DNA of 38,934 bases from positions 1 to 38,934 of the IMG/VR virus record IMGVR_UViG_3300038314_001026; one strand, 5' to 3'. A program made the translations under genes and the position numbers. Below, one piece after another: positions 2,402 through 30,254 of the stretch. The stretch is from a virus (lineage: Duplodnaviria > Caudoviricetes). Each line of letters opens with the position of its first letter. The first letter of the stretch is position 1. The notes under the pieces were generated by a model. It worked only from the letters and a program-made list of their open reading frames with translations, was not told the DNA's origin and did not search any database.

Positions 2402-5037
2402 AAGTTAGTTATCTCCTCAATTAAATTACCACCCGCTGTAAATGGATCTGTGCCACCCCTAGGTATAACACGACTTGGTGGTAAATAAAACCTTTGATTG
2501 CTCTTTTTGCGTATTCTGTTTTCCATTCGCTTGATATATCCGGGGTTCGAGAGCTCTTGTATGTTATATAATATCAGGTAGTCTATGATCATCTTCGTAT
2601 AGAATAGGTTAATAAACGGGGTGTTGGTCATCATGATCTTTCCAAGCTGTGCCGCCATGTTTGATGCCTCTGATTCTCCACGAATCGCCTTGCTGAATAT
2701 TGCCGCCACGTCTCCTAATTGTCCGAAGGAAGGTCCTGCCGCCGTCTTCAGCCATCCGCCACCAAACCTGTTGTACTCTCCAAAAAGGAAATCCCCATAG
2801 ATTCCTAGTCCTCCGCCCTGTGTCATTGCCGCCAATAAGACCTTGACATTATGTGTATAGTCGTTATTAAATACCCTAGGGATCCTTCCCTTTAAGATAT
2901 CCTTTGCCGCCATGGAGACATACCCCAAGACTGTTGTAGATACAATGAATTGCACAAGCCCAAAATAATCTGCCTTTCCCTTTCCATAAAGCTCTCTGCC
3001 GATTGCCCTTCTTGTCACCGTAAGCGGGAATGACTTGAACTGCCATAGAAGCCTTAGGGCAGATCCTAGATATGTCCCTGGACTTGTCCCTAGGTGCTGG
3101 AATGCCCTCTCCCATGCGCCAGGCATTGGGATGGCAAAGTCAGCACGGTCAACAAAGTAAGAGCCAATTGAAAGCTGTAGATCTTGCCGTGTCCTCTTTA
3201 TCCTTGACTGAGAGACCTTCATTGAAGGCACTCTTTCTTTTCTCTTGACATAGCTTATGATGACATCATCGCTAATGTCACTCATTGCCTCTGCCGTGAT
3301 GTATGTCCTTCTAGATTGCCCGTGTGTCCATGTCGCCTTCCTGATGACATCCCACTCAAGGTCCTCTATTCCAAACAATGTCAGTATTCTTTTTGTGTCT
3401 GCATCAAGGCTTTTAAATGGAAGGTTTTTTTGCTTCGCAAGATTGAATGACATTGTCTGTGCCATTCCCGCCCTGTGCGAGTCATTCCACCAATTCATTA
3501 GGTTCCATTTAAAAAACTTTTGTGATGCCTTTGCAAGCATTCCTGGCATCTGGTCAATGGTTGACCACCTGTTGATCATGTGTCCAATTTGCCCGTCTAA
3601 TCCTACGGCTACCATCTGCGAGACAAGTCGCCGTTCACTTTTAGGGGCACCTCTTCCTTTTCCAAGATCAGCAAATACCTTTCCCCACCTGTTAAAGAAA
3701 CCAAATCCTTGGTAGCTCAGCTCTGACGCCTTATTGGCAATGTCAACGAAAGAGGAGATTGTTGCCCCTCCTAGTTTTGACATGTTCTCTATCGCCATCA
3801 CGCCTCCTACAATATTTGCCATCTTTACGCTGTCAGGTATTCTTGCAGTCCCATCCACCTCTGAAAAAAGATTCCATAAGAATGTCTGGTTACTTTTTAA
3901 CGACCTGTTTAGCTTGTTGATTTTAGAATCCAACTTATCTGCCTCTTTTGCAGGAAGTGTCTTCTGCAATTTTCTCATCGCCGCTATCTCTTCCTTAATG
4001 ATTGTCCTTAGCATTGCCTCTGGATTTGTCCCTAGGTTTTTCATCAAGACAGTCGCCTTTGCCATGTGGTCAAGTCCAGACATTATATTCTCTTGCAGGC
4101 TTTTTGTCCCGAACTCTGTATTGTATTCCATGAAAGATTTTCCATCTTTAAAGTGAAGCAACCTATGCTGGCTGATTCTCTTTGCCATGTTTCCAGGCAT
4201 TCCAAGATGGGTGATAGGATCAAACTCATTAAAGCCATCACTATATTTCATGTGCACGCCTGTCTTCAATGCACTCCACACTGACCTAAAGAATTCCTTT
4301 TGGTCAGCGGCAGCAATATGGCCTGCCGTCTTATCAATGTCTAGTCGTGTAACAATGAACTTATACCATGCCTCAAATCCTGCACGCCTGATCTTCAGCA
4401 TGTTATGTGTCTGGCGCATGATGTAGCCAGGCAATCTTGAGATCCATGCACCAGCAAGATTTGCGTCATCTACCGCGGCAACCTGTATCTGATGAATAAT
4501 CTTTGCAATATTCCTTGCATTTTTATTACGGGTTATCCCTGGCTTTCCTCCAGGCTTCAGCTCAAATAGCTCCTCCATAACCTGTCGTTCTATCTTTCCC
4601 TTAATAAAGACCTCCCAAAGGTCTTGCTCCTCTAGCAATCTCATCATTCTTTTCTGGTAAAGGTCACCTAAGAATTTTTGCTGAACATCAATGCTTTTTC
4701 TTGCCCCTTTAACAAATCTCATTGCTCCTCCAAGAAATGCCTTAATTCCAACGTCTTTGTCATTAAAGTTTGCAAGATATTCTTTTGCCTTTAACTTTGC
4801 AATCTGGTTCAACACCCTTGAACGCTGCTTTACAGCTGTTGCAAATTCCTCTGCATTTGCAGTGTCCTTAATGTATTTCATAACCTCAGTATCCATGTCT
4901 GTGATCTTGCCTTGCGCCTTCTTTGTCTTGATGAAGTCAGCAACATCATCCATTAACTTTTCTGCCTCACTATCAGTAATCTTGTTCTCTGTCGCGTTAA
5001 CTACCTTCTTAATGCAATCTAAATATCTACTTGCCAT
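2398..5037 (-). CDS. Internal virion (DNA ejection) protein
   Basis: Probable start ATG 5037 (TAATG overlap with upstream stop); long helical protein with GYIMRQTH and QFKSFP motifs and Gly-rich hydrophobic C-terminal segments; last core-protein position before the fibre. Confidence 0.7.
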
Positions 5038-8000
5038 TATATCTTTCCTATCATGCAATTTGCTGCGGCTGACAATCCTTTTTTCAACCACTCAACCTTT
5101 GACTTTGACTCTTTTATTATAAGCTTTGCATCTGCAATCTCTGCGTTAATCTTCTTATTGTTAAGTGAGCCACCTAGCTCAAATATTTCTTCAATCTCTT
5201 TTTCCACATTTTTAAGTGCATGCCCCTCAGGGTCTGCCTCAACCTTTAATGTCTCCTCTACCTTGCTTAATTTCGTATCGTCAGCAGTCAGCTTTGTCTC
5301 TGCCGTCACATTACTTTTTACATTCTTATGGTAATGCTGAGAGCTTGCAAGGACCTCACTTGGCATCACACCTTCCATTGCATCAGGGTCTCCTTTTTTA
5401 GGTCTTGCCTCTACATATATGTGCAGCCATTTTTTATCTTTTCCTCCAAATATTCTAGTCTTCACATCTTTCCAATATGCATGCTTTATTACCCATGTGT
5501 TAGGAGGAAGCAATATCTCAAGCTCATAAGGAAACAGGTCATCACCACTTGCGCCTGCAAAGATGACAGACTGGTTTTTCTTAATGTTATAGTGAATCAC
5601 CATGTTTTTATCTGGGGAACCTTTCATCCAATGAAGCGCCTTTAGTTCAGTGATGCTTGTTGACTGATATCCATCATCTAAAAATTGTTTTCCTATAATT
5701 AAATCTATATCAGTCTCTTTCCCTATCCCACCTGGCATGTCATCAAATACCAGATGATGTGCACCTGTCTTTCGGTGCACTTGTGTGGCAATTTGTACAC
5801 CAAATTTATCTTCTAATTTTTTAAATATATCATACCATGCCCTATATTTTGACACATCTTGCTTGCTAAATTTTACTGTGTCTCCTATGGCCTGTTTAGA
5901 AGTAGTTTTTACTGGAACATCTCCTTCAGGTCTTCCTGCTCTTAGCCAATTGTTGAAGGATACTAAGGCTCCATGCTGATAGTCTTTCAATACTTTCTTC
6001 TCATTATATGTTAAATGCTTTAGTGCTAACTTTATTTGCTTTGCAAGCCATTTTTCAGCCTCATTCGAGCTATGAAATGCCTGGTATTTTGGCTTGTTCT
6101 TCAACATCTCGTCCATTGCCTTTTGTGCTACAGTATTAATGCCAGGTTGTAATGTATACTTAAGAGCGTGCGGGTCTACCTCCGTAGACTTTACAAGGGC
6201 ATTTCTCTCTAGTATAGCCTCATTTAATCTTCCTTGCAATTTTGTAAATGCCTCAGCGAGCTTCTTTTCCTCATCACTCATCTTTGCTGGCTTAGGCTTA
6301 TACTCAACTCCTTTTTCCTGAGCCTTTAAAAATGCTGGGATGTCTAATAATTCTTCTGGTAATTCTTGTTGTTTCTTTTTTATCTGAATAATCCTACGTT
6401 GAAGCTCTTTAATTTCCTTGTCTAATATTATTTTTTTTCCATTTTGTTCTGGAGTTAATACCTTTGTTAAAAATTTTGACTTACCAAGCCATGCAGGAAA
6501 CTTTAGATAATCTCCATGGGCCTGGTTGTCTTTTATCTTAAGGTCCATCCTTCTGCCAAGCAACAGTGAGATCATCTTGTTAATTGACGATATTTCACTA
6601 GCATATCTAGGATCTGCAAATTGCTTCAGGGCCTCTCCAAGCAATATGATTGTATTGTCGTCAAGCGTGTAGAGCTTTGCAATTCCTGCCTGTATGTTTG
6701 CCTCATCTAGAAGCCGTACAATGGCATGGTGAGAACGCCCCTTGTCAAGCAACGTCACGATCTCTTTAAAGTTATCCCCAAAATCTGAATTAAGTTTTTT
6801 CTGTCCTTTTGCCCTGAACAGCAGGCTTCCGCCATGGTCAATGCTGATAATTTCCCCGTTCTTTATGATTAGGTTTCCGGGGGCCGCAAAGTCCCAATTT
6901 CCTAGCCAGGCATGAATGACGTAGTCATCTGCAAACCTGTCAAACGCGTCAGGATTAGTTGACTTAATCTTCTTGATCTTGTCAAGTGTTGCAACCTCTG
7001 CGCCTTGCACCCACTTAGAGGCAACGCCTATGACCTTTCCCTTTGAGTGGACAATCCGTACCTCAGGGACATTTCCTTTTAAAATCTTTAAGATCCAGCC
7101 AGCCAGCATCTCATTGACAGCCCACTCAGATCCTATGTTCTTGACATACCACGTTGTCCCGTCAGGGGTGGAATACATCCCTCCCTTGTTTGATCCTAGC
7201 TGTTTTGAGCTTACAACATCCATCTGGTCTAGGTCAAGTGCATGGTCTTGCTGGTTGAATTTTACCCCGCCGCCATCCTCTGTATGACCTATCGTAGGTC
7301 CTGCATCATCTGCCTCTACATCTTTCTGTGGCTTATATTCTATCTGTCTTGAAGGAGGAATCTTTCCTGTTGCCAATGTCTCATATTCCTCTTTTAACAG
7401 CCTAGCTGCCTCTACATCATCTAAAATTTTTCCCTCAGGGGCTGACTTTGCAATGTTCCTTGCCGCCTGAATAATGGTGCTGACATCAATGTCTTTTCCT
7501 GCCGCTACCTGTCCAGCCGCAACCTTCAATGCCGCCTCATGCCTCTTGTGAGAGATGCCTCTCATCCAGTCAGCACCTCTTCCTCCAACAATATGAAGTC
7601 CTCCTCCTAAGACACTTCCAAATGATACGTTCATTAGAGAGTGCCACAAGGAATAATCAGCCTGTTCGTGGAAAAGTTGCGCTGCCGTAGGAACCTCAAA
7701 TGCAGTTGTAAAGATGGCCCCAGCCTTAAATCCCCTCCAAAATCTTGCACTTGTTAATCCTACACGTCCTACATTCGCTAAAAATGAAAGCTGTCCTCCT
7801 ATAGGGATGAACATTGCGCCAATGTTTGCAGGGTCCCATAATGCTGAGCCCATGCCTACGCCGATCATCCCGGCATTTTTCCAAAATCCATGCGCCCTAT
7901 TATAGACATCCTGGTATTTCATCTCAGCAATCTTACGCTCATGCAGCACCTGAGCCTCAGCAATGCTGACGTCATTGGTGAAGTTCAGCCTGCCATGCAA

Positions 8001-8327
8001 GCCATATTTTTCATTTGCCTCCTCTGCAGGAATAATATCTCCTGATGATTCCTCTGTCTCTCCTGAAATCTCATTATAGTAGCCATCTGGATATATGCTT
8101 TCCTTGTCTTTAAAGTCTTGCTCCCACCAACGTGCGACAGTTGACTCTGATTCCTCACTTCCAACAATGTCTCCCCATGATGTCAGCCTGTATCGTTCAA
8201 AATAATCAATAGTTGCCCATTTTGCTCCAAGACCTTTTTTCTCATGTTTCCAAGGCGCCTCAATGAAGTCATGCCCCGTCATATATGTGAAGGGGTTATC
8301 GTATGTTTTTGGCAGTTGCAGTTTCAT
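5037..8327 (-). CDS. Internal virion/ejection protein with inserted HipA/PI3K-like kinase and ADP-ribosyltransferase domains
   Basis: Lies in the ejection-protein block; Gly-rich hydrophobic N-terminal part; kinase motifs GSNKGG..YVK, NE, NWD...GN, IDHG; ART motifs VHR, YQSTS, ELEILL. Confidence 0.75.
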   Translation of the reverse strand: MKLQLPKTYDNPFTYMTGHDFIEAPWKHEKKGLGAKWATIDYFERYRLTSWGDIVGSEESESTVARWWEQDFKDKESIYPDGYYNEISGETEESSGDIIPAEEANEKYGLHGRLNFTNDVSIAEAQVLHERKIAEMKYQDVYNRAHGFWKNAGMIGVGMGSALWDPANIGAMFIPIGGQLSFLANVGRVGLTSARFWRGFKAGAIFTTAFEVPTAAQLFHEQADYSLWHSLMNVSFGSVLGGGLHIVGGRGADWMRGISHKRHEAALKVAAGQVAAGKDIDVSTIIQAARNIAKSAPEGKILDDVEAARLLKEEYETLATGKIPPSRQIEYKPQKDVEADDAGPTIGHTEDGGGVKFNQQDHALDLDQMDVVSSKQLGSNKGGMYSTPDGTTWYVKNIGSEWAVNEMLAGWILKILKGNVPEVRIVHSKGKVIGVASKWVQGAEVATLDKIKKIKSTNPDAFDRFADDYVIHAWLGNWDFAAPGNLIIKNGEIISIDHGGSLLFRAKGQKKLNSDFGDNFKEIVTLLDKGRSHHAIVRLLDEANIQAGIAKLYTLDDNTIILLGEALKQFADPRYASEISSINKMISLLLGRRMDLKIKDNQAHGDYLKFPAWLGKSKFLTKVLTPEQNGKKIILDKEIKELQRRIIQIKKKQQELPEELLDIPAFLKAQEKGVEYKPKPAKMSDEEKKLAEAFTKLQGRLNEAILERNALVKSTEVDPHALKYTLQPGINTVAQKAMDEMLKNKPKYQAFHSSNEAEKWLAKQIKLALKHLTYNEKKVLKDYQHGALVSFNNWLRAGRPEGDVPVKTTSKQAIGDTVKFSKQDVSKYRAWYDIFKKLEDKFGVQIATQVHRKTGAHHLVFDDMPGGIGKETDIDLIIGKQFLDDGYQSTSITELKALHWMKGSPDKNMVIHYNIKKNQSVIFAGASGDDLFPYELEILLPPNTWVIKHAYWKDVKTRIFGGKDKKWLHIYVEARPKKGDPDAMEGVMPSEVLASSQHYHKNVKSNVTAETKLTADDTKLSKVEETLKVEADPEGHALKNVEKEIEEIFELGGSLNNKKINAEIADAKLIIKESKSKVEWLKKGLSAAANCMIGKI

Positions 8328-21627: not shown

Positions 21628-21870
21628 ATGGCGAAATTAACAAAAATCGTTGTTAATTTGCCCGAGGATTGGAAATCAGTGAAACTCCCGCCGCAAGCTG
21701 TTGCGATTTTAGAAACTTTAGAAAATCGTGATTACTCAGTTAGCGAAATGGTTGCGCATATTAAAGCAATCGCGGAAGCTGGCGATCTTGAAACCCGCCA
21801 AAGACCTTACAGGATCTTCCAATACTATCGAGCAAAATACATCGAAAACGACTTTATGAAACTTGCGTAA
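21628..21870 (+). CDS. Early protein, possible winged-helix; paralogue of 24364-24618
   Basis: SD AAGGAG; own terminator; KLPPQA..IL...TRQ...RIFQYY. Confidence 0.8.
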   Translation: MAKLTKIVVNLPEDWKSVKLPPQAVAILETLENRDYSVSEMVAHIKAIAEAGDLETRQRPYRIFQYYRAKYIENDFMKLA

Positions 21871-24363: not shown

Positions 24364-24618
24364 ATGAAAAAGGAGAATTGGACATACATCGATACAAGCA
24401 TAAAGGCTCCGCCATATCCTAAGCTGCCAAATCAGGCAAAAAACATCCTTGATATTATTAAAGAGAAGGGGACCTTGTCCCGACCTGAGCTTCTAGGTGA
24501 GATGCAATCTCGCGTTAAGACGAAGCAAAGGGGAGGCGCAAACCGCATCCTTGCATACTATCAAGGCTTATTGGCGAGATATAGCTTAATCGAGGTTCGT
24601 AAGACCTTTAAAATTTAG
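24364..24618 (+). CDS. Basic possible winged-helix protein; paralogue of 21628-21870
   Basis: KLPNQA..IL...TKQ...RILAYY; SD GAGG. Confidence 0.75.
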   Translation: MKKENWTYIDTSIKAPPYPKLPNQAKNILDIIKEKGTLSRPELLGEMQSRVKTKQRGGANRILAYYQGLLARYSLIEVRKTFKI

Positions 24619-24630
24619 AAAGGAGAGCTT

Positions 24631-25542
24631 ATGGCAAATGCCAGAGGACAGACGACTGACAAGACTCACTTGAGCATTGATCAGGCTGAGGTTCGTGGCT
24701 TTCTGCACCGTGACTACATTGCGCACTGCTTTAGGTGGTCTCATATCTGCAAGTATCTGAATGAGAAGAACCGCTATAAGAAGGCACGCATACTAGACGT
24801 GGGATGTGGGAAGGACATGCCCTTGGCAAAGACGTTAATGACAAGCAGGATGTCTCCTGAGTTCTACCTAGGGGTAGACTTCAACAAGATGGACGTTCCT
24901 GAGATGTTCCTGCATACTAAATTTCAACCGCGACTGTGGGCGCCGTTAGATTTTTCAAAGTGCTACCTAGATGATTACAACGACCCAGAATACACGCAGT
25001 TCAACTACACAGCATGCCTAGAGGTACTAGAGCATGTGGAGCCGTGGAAGGCGATAAAGATACTTAGGCAAATTCCACACCTCACAACTGACAGTGCAAT
25101 CTCTTGGTTTTCAACACCATGCTACGACGAGAAGGTCGGTGCGGCAAAGAATCATGTCAACGAGATGACATATCACGCATTTGGGGCATTGCTAGAGGAC
25201 TGTGGCTACAAGATATTGAAGCACTGGGGCACGTTTGCCTCAATAAAAGACTACAAGCATGAGCTAGAGGTAAACAATTACCTTGACATATTTGAAAAAC
25301 TCCGTGATTATTATGACACCAATGTCTTGGCGACAATATTTGCACCTTGCTTTCCTGCTAATGCAAGAAACGTCTTATGGGAAACGCAGTATGTAGGCAA
25401 GCTACATCTAAAAGAAAGACGCTTTACGCCTATTATTCACCAGGAAGGACGCTGGGGCTCAAGCGAGAGCTGGAGAGAATTGCGTCACATTAAAGTACAA
25501 GAAGAAGACATGAATGAAGAACCAATGACAAAGGTGCTATAA
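24631..25542 (+). CDS. Class I SAM-dependent methyltransferase (small-molecule type)
   Basis: ILDVGCG motif I, YLGVD motif II, LEVLEHV, FSTP, NHVNE. Confidence 0.85.
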   Translation: MANARGQTTDKTHLSIDQAEVRGFLHRDYIAHCFRWSHICKYLNEKNRYKKARILDVGCGKDMPLAKTLMTSRMSPEFYLGVDFNKMDVPEMFLHTKFQPRLWAPLDFSKCYLDDYNDPEYTQFNYTACLEVLEHVEPWKAIKILRQIPHLTTDSAISWFSTPCYDEKVGAAKNHVNEMTYHAFGALLEDCGYKILKHWGTFASIKDYKHELEVNNYLDIFEKLRDYYDTNVLATIFAPCFPANARNVLWETQYVGKLHLKERRFTPIIHQEGRWGSSESWRELRHIKVQEEDMNEEPMTKVL

Positions 25543-25543
25543 G

Positions 25544-25942
25544 ATGACATTTAAAGTTAGAGAGCCTGTGTTAGACGTGGTGTCTTGCTTCAGTGATGTT
25601 GCAAGCTTTCACATTAAGAATGGACTAGGGTATGCTGGACCGGTGCGCGACCTTCCAAAGGAGATCCAGGTTGCGAGGATCAGGCACCTCAGAGAGGAGC
25701 TTGCGGAACTTATTGTAGGACTTGAGGATAATAATAGAGAGTCAATCCTTGACGCCTGCATTGATCTTGTTTATGTCGCAATTGGGACAGCATACCTTCA
25801 TGGTTTTGACCTAGAGGAGGCATGGAAACGTGTCCAAAAGGCAAACATGTCAAAAATAAGACAAAAGACGGAGAGGTCAGACTGGGATATTGTCAAGCCA
25901 CCAGGGTGGAAGGCGCCAGACCTTAAAGACCTTGCAGAATGA
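25544..25942 (+). CDS. MazG-like nucleotide pyrophosphohydrolase
   Basis: LREELAEL, DACIDLVYVAIG, VQKANMSK, KPPGWKAPDL motifs. Confidence 0.9.
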   Translation: MTFKVREPVLDVVSCFSDVASFHIKNGLGYAGPVRDLPKEIQVARIRHLREELAELIVGLEDNNRESILDACIDLVYVAIGTAYLHGFDLEEAWKRVQKANMSKIRQKTERSDWDIVKPPGWKAPDLKDLAE

Positions 25943-26103
25943 CACCTAATGAGGAATTGTTTTGGACAAGGGTTAGAAGGCTTAAGAAGATGATCAGGAA
26001 GATCAACCATAAGAAAGATCCTGCATATAAGGCAATGTGGAAGAGAAAGCTTGTAGAGATTACAAAGAGCATTGGAAAAAAGGAGTGTACGAATGGAAAA
26101 TAG
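25939..26103 (+). CDS. Small basic protein, 54 aa (not in ORF track)
   Basis: MTPNEELFWTRVRRLKKMIRKINHKKDPAYKAMWKRKLVEITKSIGKKECTNGK; ATGA overlap upstream, stop abuts the next ATG. Confidence 0.7.
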   Translation: MTPNEELFWTRVRRLKKMIRKINHKKDPAYKAMWKRKLVEITKSIGKKECTNGK

Positions 26104-27102
26104 ATGGGCAACATCATAGTACTAGAGGGACCAGATGCCGTGGGCAAGACAACACTTGCCAAGGCATTCAATGAGCACAGCAAGGACCCTGTCAAGTACC
26201 TCCATCTTAGCTATAGGTGGAAGGACAAGATCTTTGACTATCATACTGCAGCAATGAAGCTTGCATCACGCTGGGCATATAACGGATACAATGTCTTGAT
26301 TGACAGGTGGTGGCCAAGTGAGGCATGCTACGCAACTGTCTATCGGAACGGTTCACCGTGGCCATTGCAGGGAAGGATGCATGATCGTGTAATGCTGAAA
26401 TATGGCGGACATTATGTCTATTGCCTTCCTGATGAAGATACAATAAAGAGGTTTGAGAAGCTAAAGACGCAGCGAGAAGAGTATGCAGACAATATTGATA
26501 AGGTATGCCAGATGTATAAGGATCTATACTTCGGCAACAGAACGGCAAAAGATGAGGGAAATTTCGCTCATAAGATGATCAAGAGTGGCGGAGTAGGGAC
26601 ATTGCCATATGTACGTATGTATACAATTAACCGTTGGGGAAGCCATCTTAAGGAATATGTCGAAAATGTGTTAAAACATGCTACAAGGTGGAGGGAGCGA
26701 CAGTACTATAAGGCGCTTAATCCTGACTACCATAACTTTGTAGGCTATCTTCCTACGGCAAAATATCTGTTTGTAGGAGATCAGGTCAGGCCAAAGAAGC
26801 ACATGTACTGGCCGTTCATAGAGTATGGAAACAGCAGCCTGCACATTACAAAGGCACTAGATGAGCTCTGGTTTAATGAGATGGAAGGTATCTGGGCAAA
26901 TGCCTATGACGAAAAAGGCAACCCTAACCATGATTTAGCTGAAATTATCAGTTTTAATCCGAAGATAAAGGTGATACTATTAGGTAAATCAGCCGCTAAG
27001 GTGGCAGAGACCTTTGGGATAAAAGGTGAGTTAATATATCATCCCCAGTGGTTTAGAAGATTTAATGAAGACTTAACCTCAGCACTAAGGGAGGTGATTT
27101 GA
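26104..27102 (+). CDS. dNMP (thymidylate-type) kinase fused to a C-terminal UDG-like domain
   Basis: IIVLEGPDAVGKTT P-loop and LIDRW..SE; C-terminal LFVGDQ, WPF, VILLGKSA, YHPQW. Confidence 0.75.
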   Translation: MGNIIVLEGPDAVGKTTLAKAFNEHSKDPVKYLHLSYRWKDKIFDYHTAAMKLASRWAYNGYNVLIDRWWPSEACYATVYRNGSPWPLQGRMHDRVMLKYGGHYVYCLPDEDTIKRFEKLKTQREEYADNIDKVCQMYKDLYFGNRTAKDEGNFAHKMIKSGGVGTLPYVRMYTINRWGSHLKEYVENVLKHATRWRERQYYKALNPDYHNFVGYLPTAKYLFVGDQVRPKKHMYWPFIEYGNSSLHITKALDELWFNEMEGIWANAYDEKGNPNHDLAEIISFNPKIKVILLGKSAAKVAETFGIKGELIYHPQWFRRFNEDLTSALREVI

Positions 27103-27923
27103 TGGACGTAACAGACCTACATGGAAGGACCGCCAATGATGAGTGGTTTACGACACTATGCCTATTGATGAGAAAGTCTAAGTCTCACGAGGTTGACCCC
27201 AAGGGGAAAAAGACACTCGAGATACTTAATCATTCTACAATTGTCAACATGAAAGAGCCAGTTGTGACCTATGAAAAAAGACGTCTAGGCTACAAGTTCA
27301 TGGCTGCAGAGGCATATTGGATATTAACTGGAAGAAATGATGTTGATTTTATAGGTGAATACTCTAAGCAGATATCTCAATTCTCTGATGACGGATATTT
27401 CTTTAATGGAGCATATGGACCAAGGATTGTAGACCAATTAACATACGTTGTAAATGAATTAATGCGAGATATTCATACAAGGCAGGCTGTCATGACGATA
27501 TGGAGGCCTAATCCAAGGCCATCAGTTGATATTCCTTGCACAATCTCAGTTCAATTCATGGTAAGAAATGATAAGCTTCACATTTTTGACACAATGCGAA
27601 GCAGTGACATCTGGCTAGGATGGCCGTATGATGTGTTTAATTTTACAGCACTTGCCGTCTATGTCGCTCTTCTTTATAAGATGAAGACAAAAAGGGTCTT
27701 AGACCTAGGAAATTTATATCTTACTGCTGCAAGCCAGCATCTGTATGAGTCAGACATGGACGCAGCACTTGAGGTTGTAAGTGATGCAACAAAATGGACA
27801 CCGTTGCACTTTAATGTGCACCAGTTTGAAAACCCTAACCAGTTATTGCAGTGGTTGCATATACTGGCTAAAAAGAATGGAGTGATAGATACATATGTTC
27901 CCGATAAGCAAACCAATCAGTGA
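27102..27923 (+). CDS. Thymidylate-synthase-family enzyme, dCMP (hydroxy)methylase type
   Basis: AYGPRI, TRQAV, DIPCT (catalytic Cys), MRSSDIWLGWPYD, SQHLY; Asp at the dUMP/dCMP specificity position. Confidence 0.85.
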   Translation: MDVTDLHGRTANDEWFTTLCLLMRKSKSHEVDPKGKKTLEILNHSTIVNMKEPVVTYEKRRLGYKFMAAEAYWILTGRNDVDFIGEYSKQISQFSDDGYFFNGAYGPRIVDQLTYVVNELMRDIHTRQAVMTIWRPNPRPSVDIPCTISVQFMVRNDKLHIFDTMRSSDIWLGWPYDVFNFTALAVYVALLYKMKTKRVLDLGNLYLTAASQHLYESDMDAALEVVSDATKWTPLHFNVHQFENPNQLLQWLHILAKKNGVIDTYVPDKQTNQ

Positions 27924-28429
27924 GACCCACTAAATTAGAATATTTTCTTAACATGGCGACCCTAGTATCAACTAGGTCTACATGCAAGCGTAGGGCTGTC
28001 GGTTGTGTGCTTGTTGATAGCAATGACTATGTTATTGCAACAGGATACAATGGGGTTGGAAGTGGACAGATCCACTGCATCTCTGAACCGTGCGCCGGGT
28101 CTAACTATAAGACTGGAGAAGGTCTTGACAAGTGCGAGGCAATTCATGCTGAGCAGAACGCTATCCTTCAATGCAGGGACGTGCAGAAAATCAAGACAGC
28201 ATTTATTACACTCAGTCCGTGTGTAACTTGTGCAAAGCTTTTGTTGAATACAAGTTGCAGGACAATTATATTTGACAGAGAGTATATTAATACGGACGCA
28301 GAAAGGATATGGAAAAATGCAGGAAGAAATTGGGTTAAATCAGCAGATGCCGCTTTGGGCACCAAATTCTCGTTGGACACCCCCAGCGACTTTACCAGAC
28401 TTGTCCTCGGCAAGTATCTTAGCGATTGA
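27920..28429 (+). CDS. dCMP deaminase
   Basis: RSTC.R..VGCV, ATGYNG, HAEQNA, SPCVTC Zn motifs. Confidence 0.93.
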   Translation: MRPTKLEYFLNMATLVSTRSTCKRRAVGCVLVDSNDYVIATGYNGVGSGQIHCISEPCAGSNYKTGEGLDKCEAIHAEQNAILQCRDVQKIKTAFITLSPCVTCAKLLLNTSCRTIIFDREYINTDAERIWKNAGRNWVKSADAALGTKFSLDTPSDFTRLVLGKYLSD

Positions 28430-30254
28430 TCTAGAGACATATGACCCTAATCTTTTAACGCATGGACCAGGAGGAGTAAGAAATGATGGAAAAATTATTG
28501 GGATTGCAATTTCAGCAGACACTGAAGTGGCGCGGTACTACCCAGTTGGGCATGCCGGCGGAGGCAACCTTGACCGTGACGTTGTGTGGAGATGGGCGAA
28601 AAAGCAGCTCGGTCAACATACAGCGCATGTACCGAAGGTTGGCGCGAATATCCTCTATGATCTCGAGTGGCTCCGTGCCGAAGGGATTGAAGTTTCTGGG
28701 AGGATTTTCGACATACAGGTCGCAGAGCCTCTCATCAATGAGGAAAGCGCAGAAGGATACTCACTAGAGGTCCTCAGTAAGAAATACATAGGCAAGGGAA
28801 AAGAGGAAGAGCTTCTAAGGGAAGCCGCAATTGCATACAATGTAGACCCTAAGAAAGAGCTTTACAAACTGCCCGCACATTATGTAGGACCTTACGCAGA
28901 AGGAGACGTCATTAACACAATGACCATCTGGAAGCAACAGCAAAAAATCCTTGAAGATCAAGGACTTATGGACATATTTAAGCTTGAATCAAACCTCATT
29001 CCAATGCTTTTAGACATGAGATTCAAGGGGGTAAAGATAGATATTGGCAAGGCAGAACAGCTTAATAATCGGTATATAAAAACTGAAAAAGTGATATTGT
29101 CTAGCCTGAGAAAGATGGCTGGATTCCCAGTTGAACCTTGGAGCAACCAGCAGTTGGCAGAGGCATGCAAGGAGCGTGGCATATGGTTTCCTGAGACAGA
29201 GGCAGGCAATCCTTCATTCACTGCTAGCTTTATGAACAAAAGCGACAATGAGTTCTTAAAAGAGGTTGCTGAGTTTAGGAAAGTAAACAAGATGAGACGT
29301 GACTTCATTGAGAAGGTCTGTCTCAAGATGAATCATAAAGGGAGAATACATGCGCAATTTCATCAGCTACGTAAGGACTCAGACGGGACACGTACAGGGA
29401 GATTTTCGTCGTCAAACCCAAACCTTCAGCAGATACCTGCGAGGGACGAAAATTGGGGTCCTCTTGTCAGGAACCTGTTTATTCCTGATGATGGCCATCT
29501 CTGGTCTCGTATGGATTATAACCAACAAGAGCCAAGAGTTCTTGTTCACTATGCTGCATTACGTGAAATTCCAGGGGCTGAGAAGGCCGCTGATTTATAT
29601 AGGAGTGATGCTTCTACTGATTTCCATCAAATGGTTGCAGAGATGGCAGGCATTGAAAGGAAGGTTGCAAAGTCTATAAACCTAGGAATCATGTATGGCA
29701 TGGGACCATACAAGCTTTCAACAATGCTCAACATGACATATGAGCAGGCAACAGAGTTGCTTGAGCATTACCATCAAAAGGTTCCTTTCTTAAGAGGGCT
29801 CATGCATGAGTGCACAAAGTCTGCAACACACAAGGGGACAATTAAAACATTATTAGGAAGAAGAAGGCACTTTGATTTTTGGGAACCTGCCGACTTTAAA
29901 AATAAATATCCCAACAAGGAAATGCCACTAAGAAAAGAAGAGGCAGAACGTATTTGGAAAGGAAGACCTTTAAGAAGGGCACATACGCACAAGGCATTGA
30001 ATGCACTAATACAAGGATCAAGCGCTGACATTACAAAGCAAGCCATGCTTGACATATATAATGAGACAGGAATCGCGTGCCACATGCAAGTGCATGACGA
30101 GTTAGATTTTAGCTTTAACAATAACACGCAGTTAAAAAAGGTAAAAGAACTAATGGAGAATAGTGTAAAGCTAGAGGTTCCATTAGAGGTTACAGTTGAG
30201 ACAGGAAAATCTTGGGGATCTGTAAAAAAGAATAATTGGGGAGGTGTAAAATAA
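28317..30254 (+). CDS. polA: DNA polymerase family A with 3'-5' exonuclease
   Basis: DLET exo I, TGRFSSSNPNLQQIP, DYNQQEPR motif A, KSINLGIMYG motif B, VHDEL motif C; start probably ATG 28317 after AAAGGA. Confidence 0.95.
   Translation: MQEEIGLNQQMPLWAPNSRWTPPATLPDLSSASILAIDLETYDPNLLTHGPGGVRNDGKIIGIAISADTEVARYYPVGHAGGGNLDRDVVWRWAKKQLGQHTAHVPKVGANILYDLEWLRAEGIEVSGRIFDIQVAEPLINEESAEGYSLEVLSKKYIGKGKEEELLREAAIAYNVDPKKELYKLPAHYVGPYAEGDVINTMTIWKQQQKILEDQGLMDIFKLESNLIPMLLDMRFKGVKIDIGKAEQLNNRYIKTEKVILSSLRKMAGFPVEPWSNQQLAEACKERGIWFPETEAGNPSFTASFMNKSDNEFLKEVAEFRKVNKMRRDFIEKVCLKMNHKGRIHAQFHQLRKDSDGTRTGRFSSSNPNLQQIPARDENWGPLVRNLFIPDDGHLWSRMDYNQQEPRVLVHYAALREIPGAEKAADLYRSDASTDFHQMVAEMAGIERKVAKSINLGIMYGMGPYKLSTMLNMTYEQATELLEHYHQKVPFLRGLMHECTKSATHKGTIKTLLGRRRHFDFWEPADFKNKYPNKEMPLRKEEAERIWKGRPLRRAHTHKALNALIQGSSADITKQAMLDIYNETGIACHMQVHDELDFSFNNNTQLKKVKELMENSVKLEVPLEVTVETGKSWGSVKKNNWGGVK

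What the first reader, a model, noticed from the sequence alone, without database searches (positions are those of the whole stretch)
24631..30254. Candidate new pyrimidine-modification pathway coupled to the polymerase
Seen: one tightly coupled run of SAM methyltransferase, MazG-like pyrophosphatase, small basic ORF, dNMP kinase-UDG fusion, TS homologue with a dCMP-type site, dCMP deaminase and PolA. Established: phages that replace a base combine a TS-family (hydroxy)methylase, a dedicated dNMP kinase and a pyrophosphatase that removes the canonical dNTP (T4 hmC, SPO1 hmU). No glycosyltransferase, DHFR or amino-acid transferase was recognised in the window; the extra enzyme is a small-molecule-type methyltransferase. 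Inference: the DNA carries a non-canonical pyrimidine, possibly an O-methylated derivative of a 5-hydroxymethyl or 5-hydroxy C or U, as anti-restriction armour.
Basis: partly seen in the sequence, partly recalled or inferred. Interest (0 to 1): 0.85.

Follow-up and report, generated by a model that had tools for sequence, protein, structure and literature searches.

The report
Phage methyl-capped hydroxymethylcytosine pathway
This marine phage carries a gene run predicted to replace the cytosine in its DNA with 5-hydroxymethylcytosine, plus an unstudied methyltransferase that likely caps that base with a methyl group, which would give a DNA letter (5-methoxymethylcytosine) that our literature searches did not find described in nature.

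Summary
Six intact, abutting genes plus PolA lie in a 95%-complete marine podovirus. The thymidylate-synthase homolog has Asp at E. coli positions 143, 169 and 177, the published signature of a 5-hydroxymethyl-dCMP synthase. That core (TS, MazG, deaminase, PolA) is already in print. The addition is a virus-confined methyltransferase with an invariant Hen1/UbiG-type E-x-x-E-H...H site. Among 125 related TS clusters, 97 carry it, 21 carry another known or candidate transferase (carbamoyl-, glucosyl-, others), 7 carry neither and none carries both. A tree-based test of this pattern was underpowered. Cultured phage AXL3 has the same five-gene order. Its DNA resists KpnI, which cuts 5mC DNA, and an XmnI-type enzyme, which partly cuts 5hmC DNA (cross-study comparison). 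Best reading (0.6): cytosine is replaced by 5-methoxymethylcytosine; untested chemically. The 5-hydroxy-C and modified-U options are disfavoured, and the 54-aa ORF is not conserved. GGCC depletion in this genome counts against complete protection. The scan reached the same reading before on three other genomes. LC-MS of AXL3 DNA would decide.

The parts
24364..24618 (+). 84-aa small helical ORF of a paralogous phage family (second copy at 21628-21870); often directly upstream of the MTase; role unknown
   Evidence: directly upstream in 60 of 221 MTase loci; present in 38 of 97 MTase-linked clusters and 0 of 28 others (may reflect lineage)
24631..25542 (+). Class I SAM methyltransferase of a virus-confined family; invariant E131-x-x-E134-H135 and H175-x-x-E178; predicted metal-dependent O-methyltransferase of 5hmC
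25544..25942 (+). MazG/PRA-PH-type NTP pyrophosphohydrolase; inferred dCTPase (possibly also dUTPase)
   Evidence: substrate inferred from T4 logic
25939..26103 (+). 54-aa basic ORF, accessory, not conserved
   Evidence: no homolog in 302 other loci; 24-nt shorter variant in 2 of 4 runs
26104..27102 (+). dNMP kinase (YorR/thymidylate-kinase-like, about residues 1-175) fused to a family-4-like uracil-DNA-glycosylase domain (about 205-332)
27102..27923 (+). Thymidylate-synthase homolog with D143, C146, D169, D177: predicted 5-hydroxymethyl-dCMP synthase
   Evidence: signature from PMC13326640
27920..28429 (+). Zn-dependent dCMP deaminase; inferred to feed dUMP to the host's dTMP synthesis
28317..30254 (+). 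Family A DNA polymerase with 3'-5' exonuclease (start 28317 or 28347; ORF call from 28272)

Best explanation
The cassette is predicted to replace cytosine in the phage DNA with 5-hydroxymethylcytosine, and the methyltransferase likely O-methylates that hydroxyl to give 5-methoxymethylcytosine as anti-restriction armour. Inferred steps: MazG hydrolyses dCTP to dCMP. The TS homolog makes 5hm-dCMP. The kinase, with host NDP kinase, makes the triphosphate, and PolA incorporates it. The SAM- and probably Mg/Mn-dependent MTase caps the CH2OH. The deaminase diverts dCMP to dUMP for dTMP made by the host (or by ThyX in AXL3). The UDG-like domain removes U or deaminated modified C from DNA. Shown here: gene content, order, active-site residues, folds and co-occurrence. 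Inferred: every substrate. Whether the methyl is added on the nucleotide or on DNA is open; fusions to a C5 DNA-methylase domain lean towards DNA, the operon position and one MazG fusion towards the nucleotide pool.
For: (1) TS has D143/C146/D169/D177, and its best PDB match is MilA CMP hydroxymethylase, E 1e-18, with the same Asp three residues before Cys. PMC13326640 gives N177D = dCMP, L143D/E = non-methyl product, D169N = 5-hydroxy. Xp12, a 5mC phage, has Asn at 143 and a DHFR beside its TS. (2) All 117 MTase-linked TS clusters, of 161, have the D/D/D signature. (3) Of 125 D/D/D clusters with at least 3 kb on both sides: 97 MTase only, 21 another transferase only (6 carbamoyltransferase, 3 T4-BGT, 3 HtrL-type, 6 candidate GT, 3 PLP-enzyme set), 7 neither, 0 both; in the TS-anchored subset 61/15/6/0 of 82. 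These alternatives fall in 7 lineages on the TS tree. In Xp15-like phages the carbamoyltransferase sits in the MTase's position, 2.4-3.0 kb upstream of TS against an MTase median of 2.2 kb; such enzymes act on the 5hmC hydroxyl (PMC8670742). (4) The MTase's closest solved relatives by profile are the O-methyltransferases UbiG (E 4e-9) and Hen1 (E 3e-7). E131/E134/H135/H175 are invariant in 42 and 54 diverse members and parallel the Hen1 Mg ligands E132/E135/H136/H181 (PMC10781085). (5) No glycosyl- or carbamoyltransferase was found in the window, in AXL3 or in four 100%-complete relatives. (6) AXL3 has the same five-gene order, and its DNA resisted 35 of 37 enzymes, all but the two AT-only cutters (PMC7504290). 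The 35 include KpnI (13 sites), which cuts Xp12 5mC DNA completely, and PdmI (21 sites), whose isoschizomer XmnI (recalled) partly cuts T4gt 5hmC DNA but not glucosylated T4 (PMC7653180).
Against: No activity has been measured for any member. The phylogenetic test of exclusion had only 3 starred independent pairs, median p 0.5. Sampling was biased towards MTase loci and the window's TS clade, and context was limited to about 8 kb each side. Of the 21 alternatives only BGT and carbamoyltransferase are firmly named; the 6 candidate GTs rest on ESM look-alikes with hhalign E 0.048. Fold searches give only generic class I matches: ChlM Z 17.2 (rmsd 2.9, 187 aligned), 4htf Z 17.0 (3.5, 202), HEN1 Z 15.7 (2.8, 186), with N- and C-methyltransferases close behind. 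The tools aligned E-x-x-E-H and STP to HEN1 but not the fourth His. The L143D rule is a correlation. The restriction comparison spans two labs and genomes of different GC. GGCC is depleted in this genome (40 seen, 99 expected), which full C protection should make unnecessary. L161, L164 and L165 show the MTase with no partner in the DNA fetched. Five marine myovirus-like fragments place it near NDP-sugar enzymes.
Confidence: 0.6

Rival explanations
1. The DNA carries bare 5hmC (perhaps with minor capping), and the methyltransferase acts on something else, such as a sugar, protein or small metabolite.
For: 7 of 125 D/D/D clusters, including pelagiphages HTVC119P and HTVC200P, have no transferase nearby, so bare 5hmC appears viable. 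The MTase fold is generic. Some loci place it beside NDP-sugar enzymes. Most of AXL3's resistance pattern is also that of T4gt.
Against: The MTase lies within 4 kb of TS in 95 of 97 clusters and never with another transferase. No sugar transferase was found in complete genomes. AXL3 was uncut by the XmnI-type enzyme.
Confidence: 0.16
2. Xp12-like 5-methylcytosine phage: the TS homolog makes 5m-dCMP and the deaminase is a 5mC-selective deaminase that yields dTMP.
For: The TS(D177) + deaminase + PRA-PH + PolA neighbourhood is that of the mSCD preprint, where 5 of 7 TS homologs made 5mdC. The window has no other dTMP source.
Against: Asp at 143, where Xp12 has Asn. No hit to Xp12 DHFR in the 303 loci (weak single-sequence search). 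The deaminase is 26% identical to Xp12's. The same TS clade pairs with BGT, which needs a hydroxyl. AXL3 resists KpnI, which cuts Xp12 DNA, and encodes ThyX. The MTase is left unexplained.
Confidence: 0.08
3. The MTase modifies the 5hmC nucleotide at another atom, such as N4, giving a doubly modified base other than the methyl ether.
For: The genomic coupling fits equally, and N-methyltransferases score close to the O-methyltransferases by fold.
Against: The E-x-x-E-H...H site and best profile hits are those of hydroxyl O-methyltransferases. Exclusion with hydroxyl-directed transferases is expected only if both compete for the same OH.
Confidence: 0.07
4. The deaminase converts 5hm-dCMP or its ether to the uracil form, so T is partly replaced by 5hmU or 5-methoxymethyl-U.
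For: Seven deaminases from such clusters deaminated 5hmdC in vivo. The deaminase is present in 87 of 97 MTase clusters.
Against: AXL3 DNA is cut by AT-only enzymes and blocked at C-containing sites, while 5hmdU DNA resists only about 8% of enzymes. Ten of 97 clusters lack the deaminase nearby. A fused UDG-like domain would tend to excise such bases (inference).
Confidence: 0.05
5. The DNA is canonical; the cluster only supplies dTTP and sanitises the pool.
For: This is how the AXL3 paper reads the genes. GGCC avoidance in this genome.
Against: D177 in all 87 complete rows of the first TS set. AXL3's restriction resistance and separate ThyX. MetaGPA ties this neighbourhood to modified-C DNA, 104 of 149 against 17 of 277.
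Confidence: 0.03
6. 5-methoxycytosine made from 5-hydroxycytosine.
For: A UbiG-like enzyme would suit an aromatic hydroxyl, and TS homologs can make 5-hydroxy-dCMP (PMC13326640).
Against: The diagnostic D169N is absent from the window and from all 117 MTase-linked TS clusters.
Confidence: 0.02

Closest known systems
5-carbamoyloxymethylcytosine cluster (MetaGPA, PMC8670742; same layout in Xanthomonas phage Xp15)
   Same: TS homolog with PRA-PH and dCMP deaminase plus one group transferase; in Xp15 the order is transferase-MazG-kinase-TS-deaminase.
   Different: A SAM methyltransferase takes the carbamoyltransferase's place; the kinase carries a UDG-like domain; TS identity to the Xp15 clade is only about 24%.
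T4 glucosyl-5hmC pathway (gp56, gp42, gp1, cd, AGT/BGT; gene roles partly recalled)
   Same: Acidic 143, Asp177 TS homolog, dedicated kinase, pyrophosphatase and deaminase; close TS relatives carry a Pfam T4-BGT.
   Different: No glucosyltransferase; compact operon in a 39-kb PolA podovirus; MazG-type pyrophosphatase; the cap would be a methyl.
Xp12 / mSCD 5-methylcytosine clusters (bioRxiv 2024.12.05.627091)
   Same: TS(D177) beside a dCMP deaminase and a MazG-like gene.
   Different: Xp12 has Asn143, a DHFR, a distant deaminase (26%) and no MTase hit in the 50 of 64 kb scanned.
5-hydroxycytosine/arabinosyl pathway of RB69 and DLP3 (PMC13326640)
   Same: TS homolog with acidic 143 and Asp177 making a hydroxyl acceptor.
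   Different: Those enzymes have D169N and use flavin; the window has Asp169 and no arabinose genes.
Hen1 and UbiG O-methyltransferases
   Same: Class I fold; E-x-x-E-H and S-T-P motifs; a later invariant His at similar spacing.
   Different: Far below family cut-offs (UbiG 35.5 vs 103 bits; bacterial Hen1 19.9 vs 340); own invariant RDY-x-x-H-x-x-RW and RN-x-x-W motifs; found almost only in viruses.
Stenotrophomonas phage AXL3 gp31-gp27 and Pseudoxanthomonas phage PW916
   Same: Same five genes in the same order; TS 49%, MTase 29% identical; D/D/D signature.
   Different: Siphoviruses with PolA elsewhere; AXL3 has ThyX; the modification was noted as unknown by the authors.

Membership tests
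5hm-dCMP synthase (T4 gp42/MilA type) | TS fold with catalytic Cys146 and RS-x-D motif | tested here: met
5hm-dCMP synthase (T4 gp42/MilA type) | Asp at position 177 (cytosine substrate) | tested here: met
   D177
5hm-dCMP synthase (T4 gp42/MilA type) | Acidic residue at position 143 | tested here: met
   D143, three residues before Cys and aligned to MilA's Asp; the phmmer alignment to E. coli ThyA put a gap here, so the assignment rests on counting from Cys and on MilA
5hm-dCMP synthase (T4 gp42/MilA type) | Makes 5hm-dCMP | not testable with these tools
   needs an assay
5-hydroxy-dCMP synthase (RB69/DLP3) | D169N | tested here: not met
   Asp169 in the window and in all 117 MTase-linked clusters
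dCMP methylase (Xp12 type) | Non-acidic residue at 143; DHFR beside TS in Xp12 | tested here: not met
   Xp12 Asn143 vs window Asp143; no DHFR hit in the window
Canonical ThyA | Asn177 and Leu143 | tested here: not met
   below all NCBIfam ThyA cut-offs
Hen1 RNA 2'-O-methyltransferase | Family cut-off score | tested here: not met
   19.9 vs 340 bits
Hen1 RNA 2'-O-methyltransferase | Glu-Glu-His-His metal site | tested here: inconclusive
   three ligands aligned to HEN1; the fourth His is invariant at similar spacing but was not aligned by a tool
UbiG | Family cut-off score | tested here: not met
   35.5 vs 103 bits
UDG superfamily, family-4-like | UDG fold with G(D/E), PF, N and HP motifs | tested here: met
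UDG superfamily, family-4-like | Fe-S cluster cysteines of true family 4 (recalled) | tested here: not met
   no invariant or nearly invariant Cys in alignment A5; the window domain has no Cys
5mC-selective deaminases (mSCD) | Preference for 5mC over C; the trait is polyphyletic | not testable with these tools
MetaGPA modified-cytosine neighbourhood | dCMP deaminase within 3 kb of a D177 TS, with PRA-PH and PolA | tested here: met
DpoZ | Family cut-off score | tested here: not met
   317 vs 500 bits; no PurZ among the window's Pfam hits

The most novel reading that the evidence does not exclude
A widespread group of marine, freshwater and soil phages, including cultured AXL3, write their genomes with an undescribed natural base, 5-methoxymethylcytosine, in place of cytosine. 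It is made by a metal-dependent Hen1-like O-methyltransferase, a new class of DNA hypermodifying enzyme and the commonest cap in this TS clade.
Probability: 0.55. Interest if true: 0.85.

Novelty: new variant of a known kind. Interest (0 to 1): 0.72.

Why it matters
If true, it adds a natural DNA base and a new chemistry (alkyl ether) to the known caps on 5hmC, which are sugars and carbamoyl. It would name the modification that the AXL3 authors left unknown and can be tested at once on a cultured phage. The family is large: 1305 proteins at E <= 0.001 among 1681 candidates, and 344 clusters at 50% identity with E <= 1e-30. A small neutral cap might block Type II enzymes while escaping defences aimed at 5hmC or glucosyl-5hmC (inference). 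A 5hmC-specific SAM-dependent enzyme could also serve for labelling 5hmC in epigenome sequencing, as BGT does.

Tried and rejected
Phylogenetic independent-pairs test of MTase versus other transferase: 3 starred pairs, median p 0.5, uninformative; the Fisher p of 1e-17 ignores kinship and is not relied on. An iterated MTase profile drifted and labelled a different small methyltransferase in L206, L230 and L236; counts were redone with a strict profile. Rows dropped before the count of 125: 33 clusters with under 3 kb on one side, 2 canonical ThyA and 1 V143 cluster; TS ORFs under 190 aa (3 of 286) were not clustered. Foldseek and VIA gave no close structural relative of the MTase. Sigma-70 and terminator scan gave nothing usable. 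No terminal repeat at the window's ends. No RNA holder listed. Palindrome analysis showed no general trend (mean z -0.24 and -0.47). Literature searches for a natural 5-methoxymethylcytosine or this enzyme found nothing relevant. The 2013 Iyer/Aravind survey of phage base-modification clusters (recalled) is not held and was not seen; it may already mention this neighbourhood. The mSCD preprint's supplementary TS alignment was not seen and bears on the position-143 rule. No complex prediction was run, since no binding is claimed.
Full report
Setting. The window is a whole virus record of 38,934 bases, linear, 95% complete by CheckV. The minus arm holds portal, capsid and tail genes; the plus arm holds replication genes. 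All 20 runs holding the cassette are marine or seawater metagenomes, 5 of them marked as a possible source. Four runs from four other studies carry near-identical pieces, none spanning the whole stretch.

Observation. The seven ORFs are present, intact and translationally coupled. Family hits confirm a class I methyltransferase, a PRA-PH/MazG pyrophosphohydrolase, a thymidylate-kinase-like domain, a TS homolog, a dCMP deaminase and PolA. The kinase model (pLDDT 92) matches YorR and thymidylate kinases, and family-4 UDGs at E 5e-4 to 9e-4. A profile of 48 C-terminal domains hits type-4 UDGs at E 0.0025, and 10 of the 48 hit Pfam UDG, best 9e-15. The window's own domain has no Pfam hit. The 54-aa ORF is found nowhere else among 303 loci and varies by 24 bases in 2 of 4 runs; it is accessory.

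What the TS makes. Numbered from ATG 27102 it has D143, C146, D169 and D177. Its best solved relative is MilA, a CMP hydroxymethylase (E 1e-18, against 1e-13 for E. coli ThyA). PMC13326640 (abstract, sections 4 and 24, passages read) gives three markers: Asp177 for dCMP, acidic 143 for a non-methyl product, Asn169 for 5-hydroxy-dCMP. The window fits 5-hydroxymethyl-dCMP. As a control, Xp12, which has 100% 5mC (PMC7653180), shows Asn143, Asp169, Asp177 and an adjacent DHFR. The rule is a correlation; Xp12 shows that a polar residue at 143 can go with methylation.

The known core. The mSCD preprint (bioRxiv 2024.12.05.627091; outline, sections 5, 20, 43, part of 47 and passages) reports TS, PRA-PH and PolA as top neighbours of dCMP deaminases. 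A TS lay within 3 kb in 104 of 149 modified contigs against 17 of 277 unmodified. PMC8670742 (passages and section 12) characterised a carbamoyltransferase from such a cluster that acts on 5hmC in DNA and on 5hm-dCTP; its main text has no occurrence of 'methyltransf'. So the substitution core is known and the methyltransferase is the new element.

The methyltransferase. It has 1305 relatives at E <= 0.001, and the ten ESM Atlas clusters listed are 95-100% viral. The model (pLDDT 88) is a class I fold without a close solved relative. By profile the nearest are UbiG and Hen1, both O-methyltransferases. E131, E134, H135, H175 and E178 are invariant in 42 full-length and 54 partial diverse members; E-x-x-E-H is in 227 of 227 strong, partly redundant rows and NH-x-x-E in 222. 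Hen1 binds Mg through E132, E135, H136 and H181 in human numbering (PMC10781085, passages). I infer a metal site that activates a hydroxyl. Of 28 longer family members scanned, 14 are fused to a C5 DNA-methylase domain and 1 to MazG, which ties the family to cytosine metabolism.

Neighbourhood survey. From 303 loci, 283 TS ORFs formed 161 clusters at 90% identity. With a strict MTase profile, all 117 MTase-linked clusters have D143/D169/D177. Among 125 such clusters with at least 3 kb each side, 97 have the MTase only, 21 another transferase only, 7 neither and 0 both. The subset fetched by TS queries gives 61, 15, 6 and 0 of 82. The alternatives are carbamoyltransferase (6), T4-type BGT (3), HtrL-family (3; GT role recalled), a candidate GT (6; weakly supported) and a PLP-enzyme set (3). 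On a FastTree TS tree they form 7 lineages and the MTase label changes 10 times, but only 3 independent pairs are starred (median p 0.5). The pattern is therefore suggestive, not statistically shown. The MTase lies within 4 kb of TS in 95 of 97 clusters. Of 21 MTase loci without a TS, most are short or end near the match; L164 and L173 are real exceptions within the DNA fetched. No glycosyl- or carbamoyltransferase was found in the window, in AXL3 or in four relatives rated 100% complete (150 ORFs, the 36 without a window homolog scanned by Pfam).

A cultured test case. AXL3 gp31-gp27 repeat the order MTase, pyrophosphohydrolase, kinase-UDG, TS, deaminase, as does PW916. PMC7504290 (passages) found AXL3 DNA cut by only TasI and Tru1I of 37 enzymes, left the modification unknown, and noted a separate ThyX. 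I compared that panel with PMC7653180 (part 2 of 5 of the text, part 1 of 3 of supplement 2 and searched rows). KpnI cuts 5mC Xp12 DNA completely and AhdI partly, but neither cuts T4gt. AXL3 has 13 and 14 such sites and was uncut by KpnI and Eam1105I (isoschizomer of AhdI, recalled), so plain 5mC is unlikely. XmnI partly cuts T4gt (83% 5hmC) but not glucosylated T4 or Xp12; AXL3 has 21 sites and was uncut by PdmI (isoschizomer, recalled). That hints at more than bare 5hmC, but conditions, enzyme versions and GC content differ. XbaI has one site and is uninformative.

Mechanism. Inferred flow: dCTP to dCMP (MazG), to 5hm-dCMP (TS), to triphosphate (kinase and host), into DNA (PolA), with the hydroxyl O-methylated before or after incorporation. 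The deaminase most simply supplies dUMP, since AXL3 keeps ThyX and the TS homolog cannot be the dTMP source if it is a hydroxymethylase; selectivity for modified C cannot be read from sequence. The UDG-like domain is fused to the kinase in 159 of 165 hits, the other 6 lying near locus ends. It occurs in 69 of 97 MTase clusters and also in HtrL and PLP loci, so it belongs to the substitution core, not to the methyl step.

Against. Nothing has been assayed. GGCC is at 0.40 of expectation in this genome, against 0.69-1.27 in seven close relatives and 1.03 in AXL3, which is unexplained if every C is protected. Seven clusters manage with no visible cap. Five marine fragments place the MTase near NDP-sugar enzymes.

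Novelty. Four searches of the held library found no natural 5-methoxymethylcytosine and no study of this enzyme; subscription papers are largely missing, and the 2013 Iyer survey could not be seen. PMC8989533 (passages) covers thymidine hypermodification by other enzymes. Three earlier notes of this scan reached the same reading on other genomes; my reading was recorded before I saw them, and they are not independent evidence.

Verdict. Observation confirmed. 5hmC-type substitution is likely (about 0.83 summed over the readings that include it), and methyl-ether capping stands at about 0.6. New variant of a known kind; interest 0.72.

Noticed in passing
window 5037-8327 (-), residues 757-944; also L310:19129-19935: A large virion-arm protein carries an ADP-ribosyltransferase domain (Pfam ADPrib_exo_Tox, E 2.5e-7); a relative has it too. 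Possibly an injected host-takeover enzyme like T4 Alt (recalled).
   Followed up: no
L253:5025-7034; P0182, P0199, P0204, P0217 and ten more: The MTase is fused to a C5 DNA-methylase domain that keeps the PC motif but has ESV where ENV is usual (recalled); stand-alone copies sit in L044, L084, L247 and the candidate-GT loci. Its role in a 5hmC phage is unexplained.
   Followed up: partly
L215:3754-6814, L241, L224, L250: A D143/D169/D177 TS with a PLP-fold enzyme and one or two unknown ORFs, in L215 and L241 in the transferase position; candidate amino-acid hypermodification of cytosine rather than thymine.
   Followed up: partly
L237:6183-7223, L197, L206, L230, L236, L248: A 346-395 aa virus-only ORF in the cassette, with an NDP-sugar epimerase nearby in four of the six; candidate new DNA glycosyltransferase.
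   Followed up: partly
L035:10207-10956, L043, L048: HtrL/YibB-family ORF about 2 kb downstream of a 5hm-type TS in phages lacking the MTase; GATC is almost absent in L035 (0.04 of expectation).
   Followed up: partly
L092, L093 (HTVC119P, HTVC200P): Cultured pelagiphages with a D/D/D TS and kinase but no transferase nearby; candidates for bare 5hmC DNA.
   Followed up: partly
L095:2568-6504 (Xp15): Cultured Xanthomonas phage Xp15 carries a full carbamoyltransferase-MazG-kinase-TS-deaminase run, a likely carbamoyl-5hmC phage.
   Followed up: partly
L168:8004-10118: The MTase lies two genes from an ORF that looks like SAM synthetase (read by eye); only 1 such case in 303 loci.
   Followed up: no
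whole window: GGCC is depleted (40 vs 99 expected) and CpG is 0.60, the lowest of the 21 sequences compared.
   Followed up: partly
window 28317-30254: PolA scores highest against the DpoZ model (317 bits, below cut-off) and has Leu in motif B where E. coli has Phe762 (read by eye, numbering recalled).
   Followed up: no
L173:10035-10451: An endonuclease-like ORF (read by eye) stands where TS should be, between kinase-UDG and deaminase.
   Followed up: no
L047:7591-8010, L004:6235-6549 and relatives: In some loci a 100-140 aa ORF, Nmad1/DUF1599-like in L004 and L020, is present where the kinase-UDG gene is missing.
   Followed up: partly
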